64,000 nucleotides of DNA from a virus (IMGVR_UViG_3300032248_000171:38130-102129), one strand, 5' to 3'. Positions 3 to 30,551 are shown, counted from the stretch's first letter. Notes: generated by a model from the letters alone, not told the origin. Numbers and translations: made by a program.

Positions 3-2129
3 GACATTGAAACAGCAGATCAAGAGATTCTGCTTATTTCTCTCCGTGATTCTTTTACAAACAGGATCACTGTCTGGGGATCAAAGAGTTTCAAGAATGA
101 AGACAGACAAGTTGATTACATCCATTGCGACAATGAGACGAAACTCCTTTCGTGCTTCCTCAAATGGTGGCAGGAGAATACTCCAGACGTAGTAACTGGT
201 TGGAATGTTCAGCTCTTCGATATTCCATACATCTGTAATCGAATGAATCGTGTGCTTGGTGAAGAGCATACTAAACTGCTCTCGCCTTGGAAACTTGTTT
301 CTAGTCGTGAAATTTATATCAAGGGTCGCAAACAGATTGCGTATGACATCACTGGTGTTGCGTGTTTAGATTACCTCGAACTTTATAAGAAGTTTACATA
401 CACAAACCAAGAATCATACCGTCTCGATCATATCGCGTCGGTAGAACTTGATGCCAAGAAACTTGACCACTCTGAGTTTGATACCTTCAAAGAATTCTAC
501 ACTAAGGATTGGGATAAGTTTGTCAAGTATAACATCATTGACGTTCGCCTTGTTGACCAATTGGAAGACAAGATGAAGTTGATTGAACTTGCTTTGACAA
601 TGGCATATGACGCTAAGGTAAACTATGAGGATGTTTATTCTCAGGTTCGTATGTGGGATAACATCATCTACATCTATCTGGATAAGATGAATGTGGTGAT
701 TCCTCCTAAGAAAGATAGCGTCAAGAATGACAAGTATGCTGGTGCGTATGTGAAAGAACCTGTGCCTGGTATGTATGACTGGGTGGTGAGCTTTGACTTG
801 AACTCACTGTATCCTCACTTGATCATGCAATACAACCTGTCGCCAGAGACCCTCCTAGACCGCCGTAGCAGCGTCAACGTTGACATGCTGCTGGATAAGG
901 CATTCGACACTAGCGACCTTGTGGGGGAGACCCTGTGCGCCAATGGGACGCACTACACCACCAAGCAGCAGGGGTTCCTGCCCAAACTGATGGAGAAGAT
1001 TTACCAAGACCGAACCATCTACAAAAAGAAGATGCTTGCTGCCAAACAGCAGTATGAGAAAACTCCAACAATTGAGTTGAAGAAAGAGATTTCTCGTTGC
1101 AATAACATTCAGATGGCACGTAAGATTCAACTCAACTCTGCTTATGGTGCTATTGGTAACGAGCACTTTCGTTATTACAAACTTGAAATCGCTGAGGCAA
1201 TCACTCTTTCTGGTCAGCTTTCTATTCGTTGGATTCAGAATAAGATGAATGCTTATCTCAATAAGATTCTAAAAACAAAAGGTGCTGATTATGTTATTGC
1301 TTGTGATACCGATTCCATGTATCTTAATCTGGGCCCTCTGGTTGAGACTGTATACAAGGGAAGAGAGAAAACTGCTGAGAGCATTGTCACGTTCCTTGAT
1401 AAGGTCTGTGCAATGGAACTTGAAAAGTTTATTGAAAGTTCTTACCAAGAACTGGCGGACTACCTCAACGCCTACGCGCAGATGATGAAGATGAAGCGGG
1501 AGAATATTGCTGAGCGTGGTTTTTGGACCGCCAAGAAACGCTATGTTCTCAACGTGTGGGATAGTGAAGGTGTGCGTTATGCTAAACCAAAGATGAAAAT
1601 CTGTGGTATGGAGACGGCACGTTCTTCCACGCCAGCTTACTACCGTGATAAACTGGAGCAAGCATATCGTATCATCGTTACTAAAACTAATGAGGATGTG
1701 CTTGAGTTTATCAATGAAATCAAGGAAGATACTAAGAAACAGAACTACCTTGATATTGCATTCCCTCGTGGTTGCAATGGTCTGAAGAAGTATCGAAGCA
1801 GTGCTGACATCTATGCTAAGGGTTGTCCCATTCAAGTACGTGGTGCGTTGCTGTATAATTACTATGTAAAAAAGAATAACTTAGAACACAAATATCCTTT
1901 GATACAGGAGGGGGAGAAGATTAAGTTTATGTATCTTAAGACTCCCAACACTATTGGCGAAAATGTAATCGCTTTCTTTCAACAACTTCCTAAGGAACTT
2001 AACCTTGAGAAGTATGTTGACTACACCACTCAGTTTGAAAAGTCATTCTTCGAACCATTGAAAAATGTGCTAGAATGTATTGACTGGCAATACGAACGTC
2101 GTGGTTCACTTACAAGTTTTTTTAGTTGA
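3..2129 (+). CDS. gp43: Family B DNA polymerase (T4 gp43), 5'-truncated by the window edge
   Basis: Frame is open from position 3 (DIETADQ...TGWNVQLFDIPYI). Motifs SFDLNSLYP, KIQLNSAYG and ACDTDS are present. Confidence 0.97.
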   Translation, partial: DIETADQEILLISLRDSFTNRITVWGSKSFKNEDRQVDYIHCDNETKLLSCFLKWWQENTPDVVTGWNVQLFDIPYICNRMNRVLGEEHTKLLSPWKLVSSREIYIKGRKQIAYDITGVACLDYLELYKKFTYTNQESYRLDHIASVELDAKKLDHSEFDTFKEFYTKDWDKFVKYNIIDVRLVDQLEDKMKLIELALTMAYDAKVNYEDVYSQVRMWDNIIYIYLDKMNVVIPPKKDSVKNDKYAGAYVKEPVPGMYDWVVSFDLNSLYPHLIMQYNLSPETLLDRRSSVNVDMLLDKAFDTSDLVGETLCANGTHYTTKQQGFLPKLMEKIYQDRTIYKKKMLAAKQQYEKTPTIELKKEISRCNNIQMARKIQLNSAYGAIGNEHFRYYKLEIAEAITLSGQLSIRWIQNKMNAYLNKILKTKGADYVIACDTDSMYLNLGPLVETVYKGREKTAESIVTFLDKVCAMELEKFIESSYQELADYLNAYAQMMKMKRENIAERGFWTAKKRYVLNVWDSEGVRYAKPKMKICGMETARSSTPAYYRDKLEQAYRIIVTKTNEDVLEFINEIKEDTKKQNYLDIAFPRGCNGLKKYRSSADIYAKGCPIQVRGALLYNYYVKKNNLEHKYPLIQEGEKIKFMYLKTPNTIGENVIAFFQQLPKELNLEKYVDYTTQFEKSFFEPLKNVLECIDWQYERRGSLTSFFS

Positions 2130-24678: not shown

Positions 24679-26160
24679 ATGAAAATCAAACAACTGATGC
24701 TTGCACCTGTTGCTTTGGGAATGATTGCTCCTGTTGCTGCGAATGCCGCAGACCTTAACTTGGCAGCAGTCAATCAATATTCCTCTAGCGATCAGGTTAC
24801 AAGCGTTTCGCAACTCTCTGATGTGAAACCTACTGACTGGGCTTACCAAGCACTTTCTAGTTTGGTTGATCGTTATGGTTGTGTTGCTGGTTATCCCAAT
24901 GGCACCTTTGGTGGTGCTAAACCAATGACTCGTTTTGAGGCAGCTGCTCTTCTGAACTCTTGCCTTGATCGTGTCACTGAAGTAACCGATGAACTTAAGC
25001 GTCTTCTTGCTGAGTTTGATAAAGAACTAACCATTCTTACTGCTCGTGTGGATGGACTCGAGAGTAAAGTCGGTCAACTTCAAGCAACTCAATTCTCTAC
25101 TACTACCAAACTTAAGGGTGAAGCAAACTTCGTTCTTGGTGGTGTTCCTGGTTATAAGACTACTACTGGTGCTAGTGCTGGTAATACCGCATTTAACTAT
25201 GACCTTCGTATCAACCTTGATACATCGTTCACTGGTAAGGATTTGCTCCGTACTCGTCTGCGTTCTGGTAACTTCTCCAGTCAACCTTTCGGTTCTTCTT
25301 CGTCACTACTCAAACTTGACAAAGCAGAAACCTCTACTGCTGGCGACAGCAATGTGTGGTTGGATCGTCTGTATTACACCTTCCCTGCTGGTAAGAATGT
25401 AAAACTAACTGCTGGTGCTCTTGTTCGTAACACTGAACTGGCATGGATTGCTTCAGCATACAAGTCTGAAGTTCTTGACTTCTTCCAACTTGGTGGTGCT
25501 TCAGGTGTCTATAACAAGGCAACTGGTCAAGGTTTCGGTGCTCAATACACTCAACCAGGAACTCAAGGTTTGGTTGCTAACCTAAACTATGTTGCTATCA
25601 CTGGTTCTTCTAGTTCCACTGGTGTCTTTGATTCCTCTGGTGGTCTGAACGTTCTTGCTCAGGTTGGTTATCGTGCTCCTCGGTGGGGCGTGGCAGTCGG
25701 TTACCGCTATGGCACCGAGGGTTCACGGGTTCGTAACTTCAACGCTCTTGGCGGCGGTTCTGGCGCCCTTACACACGGTCAGGATTCCAACAGCGTAGCA
25801 TTCAATGCTTACTGGCAACCTAAGACTTCTGGCATCGTTCCTTCCATCAGCTTTGGTTATGGATATAACGGTGTGAGTGGTGCTGGTAAGACTACTGGTG
25901 CTACCAACTCACAGTCTTGGATGGCAGGTCTTCAATGGTCTGATGTGTTTGCTAAGGGTAATGCTGCTGGTGTTGCTGTTGGTCAACCTTCCAACACTGA
26001 GAATGCTAGCAAGGCAACCATGCTTGAAGTGTTCTATAAGTATCGTGTAAGCGATAACATTGCTATCACTCCTGCTGTGTTCTATGCTTCAGACAATCAA
26101 GGTTCGCAGAATGCTACCTCCAACTGGGGCGGTGTGATTCAGACCAAGTTTACGTTCTGA
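24679..26160 (+). CDS. Cyanobacterial outer-membrane porin (Som/OprB-type with SLH domain)
   Basis: Signal peptide; SLH domain DVKPTDWAYQAL...GYPNGTF...TRFEAAALL; QFSTTTKLKGE; C-terminal Phe (TKFTF). Confidence 0.95.
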   Translation: MKIKQLMLAPVALGMIAPVAANAADLNLAAVNQYSSSDQVTSVSQLSDVKPTDWAYQALSSLVDRYGCVAGYPNGTFGGAKPMTRFEAAALLNSCLDRVTEVTDELKRLLAEFDKELTILTARVDGLESKVGQLQATQFSTTTKLKGEANFVLGGVPGYKTTTGASAGNTAFNYDLRINLDTSFTGKDLLRTRLRSGNFSSQPFGSSSSLLKLDKAETSTAGDSNVWLDRLYYTFPAGKNVKLTAGALVRNTELAWIASAYKSEVLDFFQLGGASGVYNKATGQGFGAQYTQPGTQGLVANLNYVAITGSSSSTGVFDSSGGLNVLAQVGYRAPRWGVAVGYRYGTEGSRVRNFNALGGGSGALTHGQDSNSVAFNAYWQPKTSGIVPSISFGYGYNGVSGAGKTTGATNSQSWMAGLQWSDVFAKGNAAGVAVGQPSNTENASKATMLEVFYKYRVSDNIAITPAVFYASDNQGSQNATSNWGGVIQTKFTF

Positions 26161-26304: not shown

Positions 26305-26494
26305 TTGGTACTCGTTAGGCAGATAGCCTAGAAGGAGACCAACTTCTACTACGGGTATCTTCCGTAGAGTCGTATGGGGATGGTTTGGCAGGGTCTTAAG
26401 GATTTTGCCTTCTGGGTGAAGTCCGACCATCCCCACAAAGATAGAGGGTAAGCCTCTGTTATATCCTTGAGGTATATTACGCTTACTCCATCAA
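26305..26494 (+). ncRNA. Unassigned structured RNA between tRNA-Ser and tRNA-Pro
   Basis: Consecutive stems plus a pseudoknot; no convincing ORF. Confidence 0.5.
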
Positions 26495-27177: not shown

Positions 27178-27270
27178 GGGGGTGTAGCTCAATTGGCAGA
27201 GCGGAAAGCTTATACCTTTCGTATACGGCAGATTACCGTGCGGTTGGGGGTTCGAGTCCCTCCGCCCCTA
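27178..27270 (+). tRNA. tRNA with TAT anticodon (nominal Ile) and long variable arm
   Basis: GAAAG-CTTATAC-CTTTC; variable stem TACGG/CCGTG; 93 nt. Confidence 0.8.
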
Positions 27271-29052: not shown

Positions 29053-29180
29053 CATTAAACTTGCCCTGGTCGGGAACCCCCTCGATGAGTTTCCAGTTTC
29101 TCTAAAGAACTGGTGGTGCGGATGGGGTTACTCCCGCCCAGTTTCCTGCCTCTGGTCAAAGGGCAGGTGGCGAGCCTGAA
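29040..29180 (+). ncRNA. manA-like structured RNA with two tandem pseudoknot modules
   Basis: GAG-ttt-CCAGTTT-CTC-taaa-GAACTGG-tggtg and CCAG-ttt-CCTGCCT-CTGG-tcaa-AGGGCAGG-tggcg. Resemblance to the cyanophage manA motif is from memory only. Confidence 0.6.
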
Positions 29181-29227
29181 GGGGGGGTTGACACCCCCTT
29201 ACCCTTCTGGTATACTATGGGAGTCGT

Positions 29228-29302: not shown

Positions 29303-29385
29303 GCCCAAATGGTGAAATGGTAGACACAGCGGACTTAGAATCCGCCGCCTTAAAAAGCGTGGAAGTTCGAATCTTCTTTTGGGCA
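29303..29385 (+). tRNA. tRNA-Leu(TAG)
   Basis: GCGGA-CTTAGAA-TCCGC; long variable arm; A73. Confidence 0.92.
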
Positions 29386-29760
29386 CTTGATACTGCTGGA
29401 AATATTCGGTGGTATCATTAGGTAAGGAAAGTAAAAGGAGCATGGGAGTCGGTGACACTTCTGAAACGCACGACGCATACCGCACCTGCCTAACTATCTG
29501 GCCAGATAGTATAAGTTAGCCTAGACCGAGATAGGCACGGTCATATGATATGCTCAAACAGACTGCTTACGTGGTCAAGCCTCTATCAGCGTTAGCTCAA
29601 TTGGTAGAGTGCCCCCGATGGTGGGGAGGGTGTTGGTTCGAATCCGACACGCATCGCAATCAAAGGCATGAAAAACTGGAGATTGCAACCCAATATGTTG
29701 GGTAACCGCTCAAAACTATATCGTATCGTAGCAGATACATAGATATAGTGGAGAGCACCT
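29386..29760 (+). ncRNA. Unassigned large structured RNA region containing a tRNA-like domain
   Basis: Continuous stems and pseudoknots between tRNA-Leu and tRNA-Gly. Confidence 0.5.
29586..29658 (+). other. tRNA-like element (canonical D and T arms, aberrant anticodon loop, 4-bp acceptor stem)
   Basis: TAGCTCAATTGGTAGAGT...CCCCC-GATGGTG-GGGAG...GTTGG-TTCGAAT-CCGAC. Confidence 0.65.
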
Positions 29761-29832
29761 GCGAAATTAGTTCAGTGGTAGAACGCTATCCTTCCAAGTT
29801 AGATGTCAGGAGTTCGAATCTCCTATTTCGCT
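29761..29832 (+). tRNA. tRNA-Gly(TCC)
   Basis: Anticodon loop CTTCCAA; U73. Confidence 0.9.
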
Positions 29833-30322: not shown

Positions 30323-30551
30323 TATAAATAAACACACAATGGTGAACATCATGGTTAACTTCAGTAAGCAAATTGAGATTAAGATTAGCGATTGCCGCCA
30401 GCATATCGCCAAATCCCTCCTGCTTGCTAATATGTAACCATCGATACATAAGCAAGATTTATCAGGGGGGAGGTTGACAAAACCGCCCCCCTATTTTATT
30501 GTAGATACATCGGTGGGAGACCCACCAGCACCTCGAAAATTTAACCCTTTT

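What the first reader, a model, noticed from the sequence alone, without database searches (positions are those of the whole stretch)
29386..29760. ~375-nt non-coding, pseudoknot-rich region with an embedded tRNA mimic
Seen between tRNA-Leu and tRNA-Gly: hairpin TGATACTGC/GTGGTATCA; long-range stem TTAGGTA/TGCCTAA; perfect palindrome ACTATCTGGCCAGATAGT (29493-29510); H-type pseudoknot GCCTA-GACCG-aga-TAGGC-a-CGGTC; GAGCAT/ATGCTC pairing. It then contains a tRNA-like domain with good D and T arms but a GATGGTG loop and only a 4-bp acceptor stem, followed by ACCCAA/TTGGGT and GCTC..ACTATATC-GTATC/GATAC..GATATAGT..GAGC. AAGGAAAGT and AACAGACTGCTTA faintly recall conserved RNase P RNA regions, but the topology does not clearly fit. 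Inference: a large phage ncRNA or a set of small RNAs, analogous in context to tRNA-associated RNAs such as GOLLD, perhaps acting as a decoy for anticodon nucleases.
Basis: partly seen in the sequence, partly recalled or inferred. Interest (0 to 1): 0.75.

Follow-up and report, generated by a model that had tools for sequence, protein, structure and literature searches.

The report
Phage tRNA-spacer RNA with rearranged antitoxin
The 374 bases between two tRNA genes of this uncultured cyanobacterial virus encode a real, conserved, modular non-coding RNA whose unchanging core is a rearranged copy of the small RNA that bacteria use to silence their AbiF suicide enzyme, so it is probably a viral decoy against that defence, while the tRNA look-alike inside it is only an optional insert.

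Summary
Window 29387-29760 is ORF-free and folds strand-specifically (z -4.3 on +, -1.8 on -). It has no Rfam match except a partial tRNA hit.

I found 16 distinct versions (184-374 nt) in uncultured phage and metagenome contigs. All 14 with both flanks held fill the tRNA-Leu(UAG) to tRNA-Gly(UCC) spacer, downstream of wcaG RNA and a sigma-70-type promoter. None was found in 50,697 deposited phage records or 185,579 prokaryote species genomes.

The RNA is a chain of modules:
- a 5' hairpin (strong covariation);
- an invariant palindromic hairpin;
- an H-type pseudoknot;
- M4 and M6, conserved as well as the flanking tRNAs;
- variable hairpins between them.

The tRNA-like domain occurs in only 3 of 16 versions and is skipped exactly in a metatranscriptome contig.

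M4 is a circular permutation of the abiF antitoxin RNA (RF03085). It shares 21 of 21 fixed nucleotides, the same 6/1 internal loop and a 6-bp helix with the same two closing pairs. One relative carries a canonical abiF in the same spacer.

The antitoxin-decoy function is inferred, not shown. Host AbiF could not be checked.

This scan had already flagged the same family, and the abiF lead, on other genomes. I re-tested that lead here.

The parts
29188..29216 (+). Sigma-70-type promoter (TTGACA, 17 nt, TG-extended TATACT) of the tRNA/ncRNA operon, immediately after wcaG RNA
   Evidence: 11 of 12 matches. The same arrangement is visible in the relatives printed.
29303..29385 (+). tRNA-Leu(UAG). 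Its 3' processing would set the 5' end of the ncRNA.
29387..29417 (+). P1, the 5' hairpin flush with the tRNA-Leu trailer. It belongs to a mobile 'post-tRNA hairpin' module set.
   Evidence: Covariation at 6 of 7 outer pairs. The sister hairpin type recurs after tRNA-Ser at window 26306-26343 and after other tRNAs in relatives.
29418..29493 (+). Clade-specific 76-nt insert domain closed by a 7-bp stem. Internal fold unverified.
   Evidence: Present with a few differences in metatranscriptome contigs of X16, X18 and X19. Absent from the 15 contig relatives.
29494..29509 (+). P2 (module M2), a 16-nt palindromic hairpin with an invariant self-complementary GGCC loop
   Evidence: Mean pairwise identity 0.94.
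29519..29542 (+). H-type pseudoknot (5+5 bp)
   Evidence: The window has A-U pairs where relatives have U-U or U-G. The type-B relatives form a pseudoknot of the same topology with covarying stem 1.
29552..29584 (+). M4, a circularly permuted abiF motif: GCU, a 6-nt strand, a 6-bp hairpin (29561-66 with 29571-76), A, AGC, CUCU
   Evidence: abiF consensus. Canonical cyanophage-type abiF sequences. Hairpin covariation: 0 of 500 shuffles reach the observed score. The word pair occurs once in the window, against 0.02 expected.
29589..29652 (+). Optional tRNA-like insert with an intact elbow, a 4-bp acceptor stem and a short non-decoding anticodon arm
   Evidence: Present only in the window, L008 and L079. 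Skipped as 29589-29655 in an RNA-library contig. No parent tRNA in the window.
29656..29686 (+). Optional hairpin with a 6-bp stem and a conserved 19-nt loop
   Evidence: Present in 10 of 16 versions, with U-A to C-G compensation in the stem. Replaced by unrelated hairpins in the others.
29688..29703 (+). Variable small hairpin
   Evidence: The same or a different hairpin sits at this place in relatives.
29708..29760 (+). M6, the 3' composite hairpin flush with tRNA-Gly. It repeats the words GCUCAAA and AGC-NYCU and is a diverged second abiF-like unit.
   Evidence: Mean identity 0.89, equal to tRNA-Gly. It occupies the place, just upstream of tRNA-Gly, where S-CREM1 has a canonical abiF RNA.
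29761..29832 (+). tRNA-Gly(UCC). RNase P cleavage at its 5' end would set the 3' end of the ncRNA.

Best explanation
The spacer is a genuine modular non-coding RNA of the phage tRNA operon. It is transcribed from the promoter at 29188-29216 together with tRNA-Met, tRNA-Leu and tRNA-Gly. It is released when the host's tRNA 3' and 5' processing enzymes cut at the flanking tRNAs (inferred).

Its invariant core is derived from the abiF antitoxin RNA. M4 is a circular permutation of that motif, and M6 is a more diverged second unit.

AbiF (Abi_2, a HEPN RNase) is a dimeric toxin. In C. difficile it is neutralised in trans by an RNA carrying two abiF motifs. The phage carries no Abi_2 gene. The most likely job is therefore a toxin-less antitoxin mimic: it binds a host or prophage AbiF-type RNase and prevents abortive infection, as pseudo-ToxI does for ToxN.

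P1, the pseudoknot and the variable hairpins are scaffold or processing modules. The tRNA-like domain is an optional insert, most likely the remnant of a tRNA that once punctuated the RNA.

What is shown: conservation, structure, the permuted abiF homology and the operon context. What is inferred: the processing, the binding to AbiF and the anti-defence effect.
For: **Family and context**
- There are 16 distinct homologues. All 14 whose flanks are held lie between tRNA-Leu(UAG) and tRNA-Gly(UCC).
- M2, M4 and M6 are as conserved (0.94, 0.85, 0.89) as tRNA-Leu and tRNA-Gly (0.85, 0.89).
- Covariation supports P1, the M4 hairpin and the pseudoknot.
- No ORF is conserved. The 24-codon ORF changes frame or is absent in relatives.
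- A promoter lies upstream. An RNA-library contig of depth 83 covers the element (weak evidence).

**Homology of M4 to abiF**
- The abiF consensus is a 6-bp P1, then A, AGC, an 11-nt loop, GCU, a 6-nt strand, and the P1 return strand.
- The cyanophage-type canonical copies share 21 of 21 fixed nucleotides with M4 (11 from the GCU word on, 10 through the AGC word). They also share the 6-nt/1-nt internal loop and the G-C and A-U pairs that close the 6-bp helix.

**Links between canonical abiF and this spacer**
- Contig G001 holds a canonical abiF (43.3 bits) together with M2-M6 in the same Leu-to-Gly spacer.
- S-CREM1 has a canonical abiF 4 nt upstream of the syntenic tRNA-Gly.
- L102, L124 and L131 have one upstream of tRNA-Leu(UAG) and lack this spacer RNA.

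**Toxin-less abiF in viral contigs**
- Of 119 canonical abiF instances, 24 abut a downstream tRNA.
- Only 5 have an Abi_2-like ORF nearby.
- This genome has no Abi_2 gene.

**Precedents in the literature**
- RCd22, with two abiF motifs, binds and neutralises dimeric AbiF in trans (PMC12373285).
- Pseudo-ToxI is a phage-evolved antitoxin mimic (PMC5086642).
Against: - M4 and M6 do not score with the Rfam abiF model even at E <= 10. This is expected for a permutation, but it means membership rests on my own alignment.
- The 11-nt abiF loop is opened. Only its first four nucleotides, and in some members its last three, survive. If AbiF reads that loop, binding may be lost.
- M6 has a different internal-loop geometry.
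- G001 carries a canonical abiF as well as M4 and M6, so they may not be redundant.
- Published surveys report the Abi_2 family mainly in Bacillota and Pseudomonadota. I could not test whether picocyanobacterial hosts have it.
- No binding, processing or phenotype data exist.
- The 16 sequences are related, so covariation counts are not independent events.
Confidence: 0.45

Rival explanations
1. A free-standing structured RNA with a function unrelated to AbiF, for example a self-assembling or scaffolding RNA like manA, which occupies the same slot in S-CREM1. On this view the abiF-derived words are only evolutionary raw material.
For: - manA lies flush between tRNA-Leu and the next tRNA in S-CREM1.
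- manA RNAs form RNA-only cages through kissing loops (preprint 10.64898/2026.07.01.735769).
- P2 has an invariant self-complementary GGCC loop in all 16 members.
- Conserved parts other than M4 (P2, the M6 apical loop, the 19-nt loop of the 29656-86 hairpin) have no abiF counterpart.
Against: - There is no sequence or CM similarity to manA, and the architecture differs.
- The most invariant single-stranded words are exactly the abiF words.
- Multimerisation is pure inference.
Confidence: 0.2
2. A purely cis-acting spacer. Its hairpins insulate neighbouring tRNAs and guide RNase E, P or Z processing of the operon transcript, and the excised RNA has no trans function.
For: - The P1-type hairpins recur directly after several different tRNAs.
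- M6 and the canonical abiF copies sit 0-4 nt upstream of tRNA 5' ends.
- Marine relatives join tRNA-Leu to tRNA-Gly with only 35 nt, so the insert is dispensable for tRNA production.
Against: - Conservation of long single-stranded words and loops matches that of tRNA genes. Processing signals would not need that.
- The homology is to an RNA known to act by binding a protein.
- Most other tRNA junctions in this array are 0-3 nt long and need no such element.
Confidence: 0.15
3. One reading: the embedded tRNA mimic is the active part and decoys anticodon nucleases or other tRNA-targeting defences.
For: - The elbow (D and T loops) is intact.
- The five differences between the two known variants all preserve the fold, and the anticodon arm is identical. 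By my own rough estimate this would happen by chance with p of about 0.07.
Against: - The domain is present in 3 of 16 members and is an indel polymorphism among close relatives.
- It has a 4-bp acceptor stem, and a 4-bp anticodon stem with no U33.
- It has no parent tRNA or anticodon identity for a nuclease to recognise.
Confidence: 0.05
4. Neutral debris: decayed tRNA genes and recombination scars with no function.
For: The composition is mosaic with frequent module swaps, and it includes a tRNA remnant.
Against: - Blocks are as conserved as functional tRNAs.
- Compensatory changes are present.
- The folding signal is strand-specific.
Confidence: 0.03

Closest known systems
abiF RNA motif (Rfam RF03085; RCd22 of C. 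difficile, PMC12373285)
   Same: - The conserved words on both sides of the core.
- A 3-bp AGC/GCU helix, a 6-nt/1-nt internal loop and a 6-bp helix with the same closing pairs.
- Two units per RNA, as in RCd22.
- Canonical copies occur in the same operon slot in relatives.
   Different: - The connectivity is circularly permuted: the distal end of P1 is closed and the 11-nt loop is opened.
- It does not score with the Rfam model.
- It has no adjacent Abi_2 gene.
- It is embedded in a 200-370-nt multi-module RNA bounded by tRNAs.
Pseudo-ToxI of phage TE (Blower et al. 2012, as reviewed in PMC5086642)
   Same: A phage-borne, toxin-less RNA antitoxin mimic that would neutralise an abortive-infection RNase.
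   Different: - ToxI/ToxN is an unrelated toxin and RNA family.
- Pseudo-ToxI is a tandem repeat processed by the toxin itself.
- Here the function is inferred only.
manA RNA (RF01745) in cyanophage tRNA arrays, e.g. S-CREM1
   Same: - The same genomic slot, directly after tRNA-Leu.
- It begins with a hairpin flush with the tRNA and ends flush with the next tRNA.
- Presumably released by tRNA processing.
   Different: No sequence or structural similarity. There is no long-range closing helix.
Phage T4 small stable RNAs rnaC and rnaD (species 1 and 2) in the T4 tRNA cluster (from my own knowledge)
   Same: Non-tRNA stable RNAs encoded inside a T4-like phage tRNA operon and matured with the tRNAs.
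   Different: No homology was tested or is expected. The T4 RNAs also have unknown function.
tRNA (RF00005) and tRNA pseudogenes
   Same: The insert at 29589-29652 keeps the D arm, the T arm and the elbow contacts.
   Different: A truncated acceptor stem and a non-decoding anticodon arm. It is an optional insert.

Membership tests
abiF RNA (RF03085) | Scores at or above the Rfam gathering threshold (37 bits) | tested here: not met
   No abiF hit for the window spacer at E <= 10, nor for M4 or M6 of G001. The canonical copy in G001 scores 43.3 bits and that of S-CREM1 52.2 bits.
abiF RNA (RF03085) | The two conserved core words (the one containing AGC-CUCU and the one starting GCU-CAAA) | tested here: met
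   Both are invariant in all 16 members. The combination occurs once in 64 kb, against 0.02 expected.
abiF RNA (RF03085) | 3-bp AGC/GCU helix, asymmetric internal loop (1 nt / 6 nt) and 6-bp outer helix | tested here: met
   All are present in M4, but in circularly permuted strand order. The 6-bp helix covaries. For M6 the internal loop differs, so the result there is inconclusive.
abiF RNA (RF03085) | Closed 11-nt terminal loop of conserved sequence | tested here: not met
   The loop is opened. Only its first four nucleotides (3' of AGC) are kept, and in type-A members its last three (5' of GCU).
abiF RNA (RF03085) | Lies upstream of an Abi_2/AbiF gene | tested here: not met
   No PF07751 in the 102-kb record, which is about 55% complete. 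The same holds for 114 of 119 canonical viral copies.
abiF RNA (RF03085) | Binds and neutralises AbiF toxin | not testable with these tools
   Needs co-expression or EMSA tests.
tRNA (RF00005), for 29589-29652 | Full cloverleaf with a 7-bp acceptor stem and a 5-bp anticodon stem plus 7-nt loop (U33, purine 37) | tested here: not met
   35.2 bits over model positions 4-67 only. Acceptor stem 4 bp; anticodon stem 4 bp with a loop lacking U33. ARAGORN does not call it in the window.
tRNA (RF00005), for 29589-29652 | D-loop/T-loop elbow | tested here: met
   alignment. Both known variants keep GG in the D loop and the UUCRANU pattern in the T loop.
manA RNA (RF01745) | Match to the covariance model and multi-stem junction architecture | tested here: not met
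   No hit at E <= 10. See the S-CREM1 manA alignment for comparison.
RNase P RNA, tmRNA, GOLLD, ROOL, Y-RNA-like | Match to the Rfam models, or to ARAGORN for tmRNA | tested here: not met

The most novel reading that the evidence does not exclude
Phage tRNA arrays act as 'RNA anti-defence islands'. tRNA punctuation releases toxin-less antitoxin RNAs. In this clade the abiF antitoxin has been circularly permuted, duplicated and built into a larger RNA that presents two binding units to a dimeric HEPN toxin. The RNA may itself pair up through the invariant palindromic GGCC hairpin. This would be a new architecture for an RNA-based counter-defence in ecologically important cyanophages.
Probability: 0.3. 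Interest if true: 0.8.

Novelty: new variant of a known kind. Interest (0 to 1): 0.62.

Why it matters
If the reading is right, it has three consequences.
- It would be a natural, conserved example of a phage carrying an RNA antitoxin mimic. So far that is known mainly from laboratory escape mutants (pseudo-ToxI).
- It would explain why abiF RNAs without a toxin gene are common in viral contigs and so often abut tRNA genes.
- It would give a purpose to some of the unexplained structured RNAs in cyanophage tRNA arrays.

The circular permutation also offers a natural test of which parts of the abiF fold AbiF recognises.

If the decoy reading is wrong, the element is still an uncatalogued RNA family conserved as strongly as tRNAs.

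Tried and rejected
**Homology searches that found nothing**
- blastn of the spacer against 50,697 phage records gave no hit at E 1e-5. At E 10 only the tRNA-like part hit other tRNAs.
- A scan of 185,579 species genomes with the M6 pattern gave only 4 chance hits, in Prevotella-type and Bacillus-type genomes.
- Rfam at E <= 10 gave nothing but tRNA.

**Searches with many false hits**
- 46 of the 60 hits to the M4 pattern in viral contigs were unrelated sequences, mostly with an 8-nt gap and no hairpin.

**Coding potential**
- The 24-aa ORF at 29668-29742 was considered and rejected. It is frameshifted in L003 and its start is absent in L012, L029 and L078.

**Context**
- The neighbouring proteins give no functional hint.

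**Host Abi_2**
- I tried to reach cyanobacterial genomes to look for Abi_2.
- Literature searches for Abi_2 in picocyanobacteria found nothing usable.

**Prior description**
- The supplement of the IMG/VR structured-RNA survey (PMC10690425) is not held. I therefore cannot say whether this motif is among its 8,495 candidates.

**RNA evidence**
- The metatranscriptome evidence comes from assembled contigs only. It shows no ends, no strand and no expression level, and parts without cover mean nothing.

**An alternative fold**
- I considered a 'canonical-order' abiF reading, with AGC of M4 pairing with GCU of M6 and M5 sitting in the loop. I rejected it because the flanking strands cannot form the outer helix.

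**Origin of the tRNA-like insert**
- No parent tRNA was found in the window; the best identity is 73%, which is background.

Full report
**Setting.** The window is part of a 102-kb IMG/VR virus record, about 55% complete. It carries 22 tRNA genes and a wcaG RNA at 29085-29181. Its nearest cultured relative in this region is the estuarine T4-like Synechococcus phage S-CREM1. The finding lies between tRNA-Leu(UAG) (29303-29385) and tRNA-Gly(UCC) (29761-29832). A sigma-70-type promoter (TTGACA, 17 nt, TG-extended TATACT) at 29188-29216 sits a few bases upstream of tRNA-Met. Met, Leu, the spacer and Gly are therefore one transcription unit.

**The observation.**
- The + strand folds much better than shuffles (z -4.3). 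The - strand does not (z -1.8).
- Rfam gives only a partial tRNA match, 35.2 bits over model positions 4-67. Nothing appears for RNase P, tmRNA, GOLLD, ROOL or manA, even at E <= 10.
- Only short ORFs are present. The 24-codon one is frameshifted or absent in relatives.

**Relatives.** I did not search with the element itself. I first searched IMG/VR for the 3' end of the flanking tRNA-Leu, which gave one contig with a shorter but clearly homologous spacer. Conserved blocks from that comparison then recovered more contigs from IMG/VR and from metagenomes.
- There are 16 distinct versions of 184-374 nt. Every one with both flanks held lies between tRNA-Leu(UAG) and tRNA-Gly(UCC).
- None was found in 50,697 deposited phage records.
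- None was found in 185,579 prokaryotic species genomes.

**Anatomy.** The RNA is a chain of modules.
- **M1.** A 5' hairpin flush with tRNA-Leu. Its sequence varies freely, but six of its seven outer pairs covary.
- **M2.** A 16-nt palindromic hairpin with an invariant GGCC loop. Its few changes are of the G-U type, which fit an RNA on the + strand.
- **M3.** An H-type pseudoknot in two sequence types of the same topology. Stem 1 of type B covaries. In the window both stems are perfect, where other type-A members have a U-U mismatch or a U-G pair.
- **M4.** Two invariant single-stranded words flank a 6-bp hairpin that covaries strongly. None of 500 shuffles reaches the observed score, and RNAalifold predicts the same helix independently.
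- **M5.** One to three variable hairpins. This is where the tRNA-like domain sits in the window.
- **M6.** A composite hairpin, nearly invariant in sequence, flush with tRNA-Gly. It is 98% paired, against 13-54% when the partners are slid.

M2, M4 and M6 are as conserved (mean identity 0.94, 0.85, 0.89) as the flanking tRNA-Leu and tRNA-Gly (0.85, 0.89). That rules out neutral decay.

**The tRNA-like domain.**
- It occurs only in the window, L008 and L079.
- A 323-nt contig of a freshwater metatranscriptome matches 29419-29588 and 29656-29741 and skips exactly 29589-29655. The domain is therefore an indel among close relatives.
- Its elbow is intact, but the acceptor stem has 4 bp and the anticodon stem has 4 bp with a loop lacking U33.
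- No parent tRNA is recognisable.
- I read it as an optional insert, most likely the remnant of a tRNA that once punctuated the RNA. Whether it still directs RNase P is untested.

**The modules are mobile.**
- The hairpin type that forms M1 in several relatives also follows tRNA-Ser at window 26306-26343, and follows other tRNAs in relatives.
- The three-hairpin cassette of that Ser-to-Pro spacer forms the 5' end of the L078 version.
- In S-CREM1 the slot after tRNA-Leu holds manA RNA instead, and a canonical abiF RNA lies 4 nt upstream of the syntenic tRNA-Gly.

**The abiF link.** Earlier notes of this scan on other genomes proposed that the conserved centre is a permuted abiF RNA. I tested this myself.
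- The Rfam consensus is a 6-bp helix P1, then A, AGC, an 11-nt loop, GCU, a 6-nt strand, and the return strand of P1. AGC pairs with GCU.
- I collected 119 canonical copies from viral contigs. The cyanophage-type copies (L102, L124, L131, G001) have a P1 that ends in UC and restarts with GA, with the 6-nt strand CAAACA.
- M4 reads GCU, CAAACA, a 6-bp hairpin that starts GA and ends UC, then A, AGC, CUCU.
- All 21 non-variable nucleotides are therefore identical. The 6-nt/1-nt asymmetry of the internal loop is kept, and so are the helix length and its two closing pairs.
- The strand connectivity is rotated. The far end of P1 is closed by a loop and the 11-nt loop is opened. A tandem duplication of abiF followed by loss of the outer halves would give this directly.
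- The word pair occurs once in the 64-kb window, against 0.02 expected.
- M6 repeats the GCU-CAAA word and an AGC-NYCU word, but its internal loop is different. I call it a diverged second unit with less confidence.
- As expected for a permutation, neither unit scores with the Rfam model.

**Context supports the link.**
- Contig G001 carries P1, a canonical abiF (43.3 bits), a run of ten N, and then M2-M6, all in the one Leu-to-Gly spacer.
- L102, L124 and L131 have the canonical abiF just upstream of tRNA-Leu(UAG) and lack the spacer RNA.
- The window's genome has neither a canonical abiF nor an Abi_2 gene.
- Of the 119 canonical viral copies, 24 lie within 25 nt upstream of a same-strand tRNA and 7 lie just downstream of one.
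- Only 5 of the 119 have an Abi_2-like ORF in the fetched locus. Toxin-less abiF RNAs bounded by tRNAs are therefore a general feature of viral contigs.

**Mechanism.**
- In C. difficile, RCd22 carries two abiF motifs. It binds the dimeric Abi_2-family toxin AbiF and neutralises it in cis and in trans, and the stem structure is required (PMC12373285).
- Phage TE escapes ToxIN by evolving a pseudo-ToxI antitoxin mimic (PMC5086642).
- By analogy, I propose that the spacer RNA is cut out of the operon transcript at the flanking tRNAs. It would then present two abiF-type units to a host or prophage AbiF-type RNase and block abortive infection.
- These steps are inferred: release, binding, and the existence of the target in the host. 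Published surveys place Abi_2 mainly in Bacillota and Pseudomonadota, and I could not search cyanobacterial genomes.
- I put the full functional statement at 0.45, the abiF ancestry of M4 at about 0.8, and the reality of the RNA at about 0.9.

**Rivals.**
- A manA-like self-assembling or scaffold RNA. The invariant palindromic GGCC loop and the manA cage preprint make this worth testing.
- A purely cis-acting processing spacer.
- Neutral debris.

Each is weighed in its own section of this report.

**Expression evidence is weak.** Assembled contigs from RNA libraries of freshwater and lake samples cover the element, one at depth 83 against 3-18 for its flanks. Contigs show no ends, no strand and no level. 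A marine RNA-library contig joins tRNA-Leu to tRNA-Gly with only 35 nt, so the element is dispensable for the tRNAs themselves.

**Novelty.** The RNA as a whole is not in Rfam. Its core is a new (permuted) variant of a known motif, used in a known kind of strategy. I could not check whether the 2023 IMG/VR survey of structured RNAs lists it. This scan had already noted the same family on at least four other genomes.

Noticed in passing
window 26306-26494: The tRNA-Ser to tRNA-Pro spacer is a second modular structured RNA. It has a three-hairpin cassette shared with L078's version of the studied RNA, plus a 3' pseudoknot module. That module contains the abiF-like word with AGC-CUCU and a downstream GCUUAC that can pair with it. 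In L002 the 3' module sits in a different spacer, after tRNA-Asn.
   Followed up: partly
window 29085-29216 and 30460-30502: wcaG RNA is followed at once by the operon promoter. This order (wcaG, promoter, tRNA-Met) is conserved in relatives and in S-CREM1. In both TTGACA promoters of the array the -35 box sits in the loop of a G-run/C-run hairpin, which could double as a terminator for upstream transcripts.
   Followed up: no
L064 1714-1790; L203 about 800-880 (minus strand); L102 and L124 next to tRNA-Met: A second non-canonical tRNA-like element lies between tRNA-Met and abiF or tRNA-Leu in S-CREM1, G001, L102 and L124. ARAGORN calls it tRNA-Leu(caa) in L102 and L124. By eye, the anticodon region of the sequences printed there looks irregular. 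It is absent from this window.
   Followed up: no
L146 and L178: In these contigs a canonical abiF RNA lies 87 nt upstream of an SLH-OprB porin gene. This is the same kind of porin as window 24679-26160, which sits inside the tRNA array.
   Followed up: no
window 26318-26332 against 29494-29499; M1 of L003, L008, L029, L067: The apical loop of the 'post-tRNA' hairpin (AGAUAG) is identical to the 3' strand of the palindromic hairpin M2, and so is complementary to its 5' strand. A competing or kissing interaction is possible, in cis in relatives and in trans in this phage.
   Followed up: partly
window 27178-27270: ARAGORN and Rfam call a 93-nt tRNA-Ile(UAU) with a long extra arm, conserved in L002, L008 and L012.
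   Followed up: no
L067 520-564 (minus strand); X18 loose end at 29741: Some relatives carry an extra 45-nt hairpin between M6 and tRNA-Gly. An X19 contig replaces most of the spacer with 501 other letters. The family is therefore larger and more varied than the 16 versions analysed.
   Followed up: no
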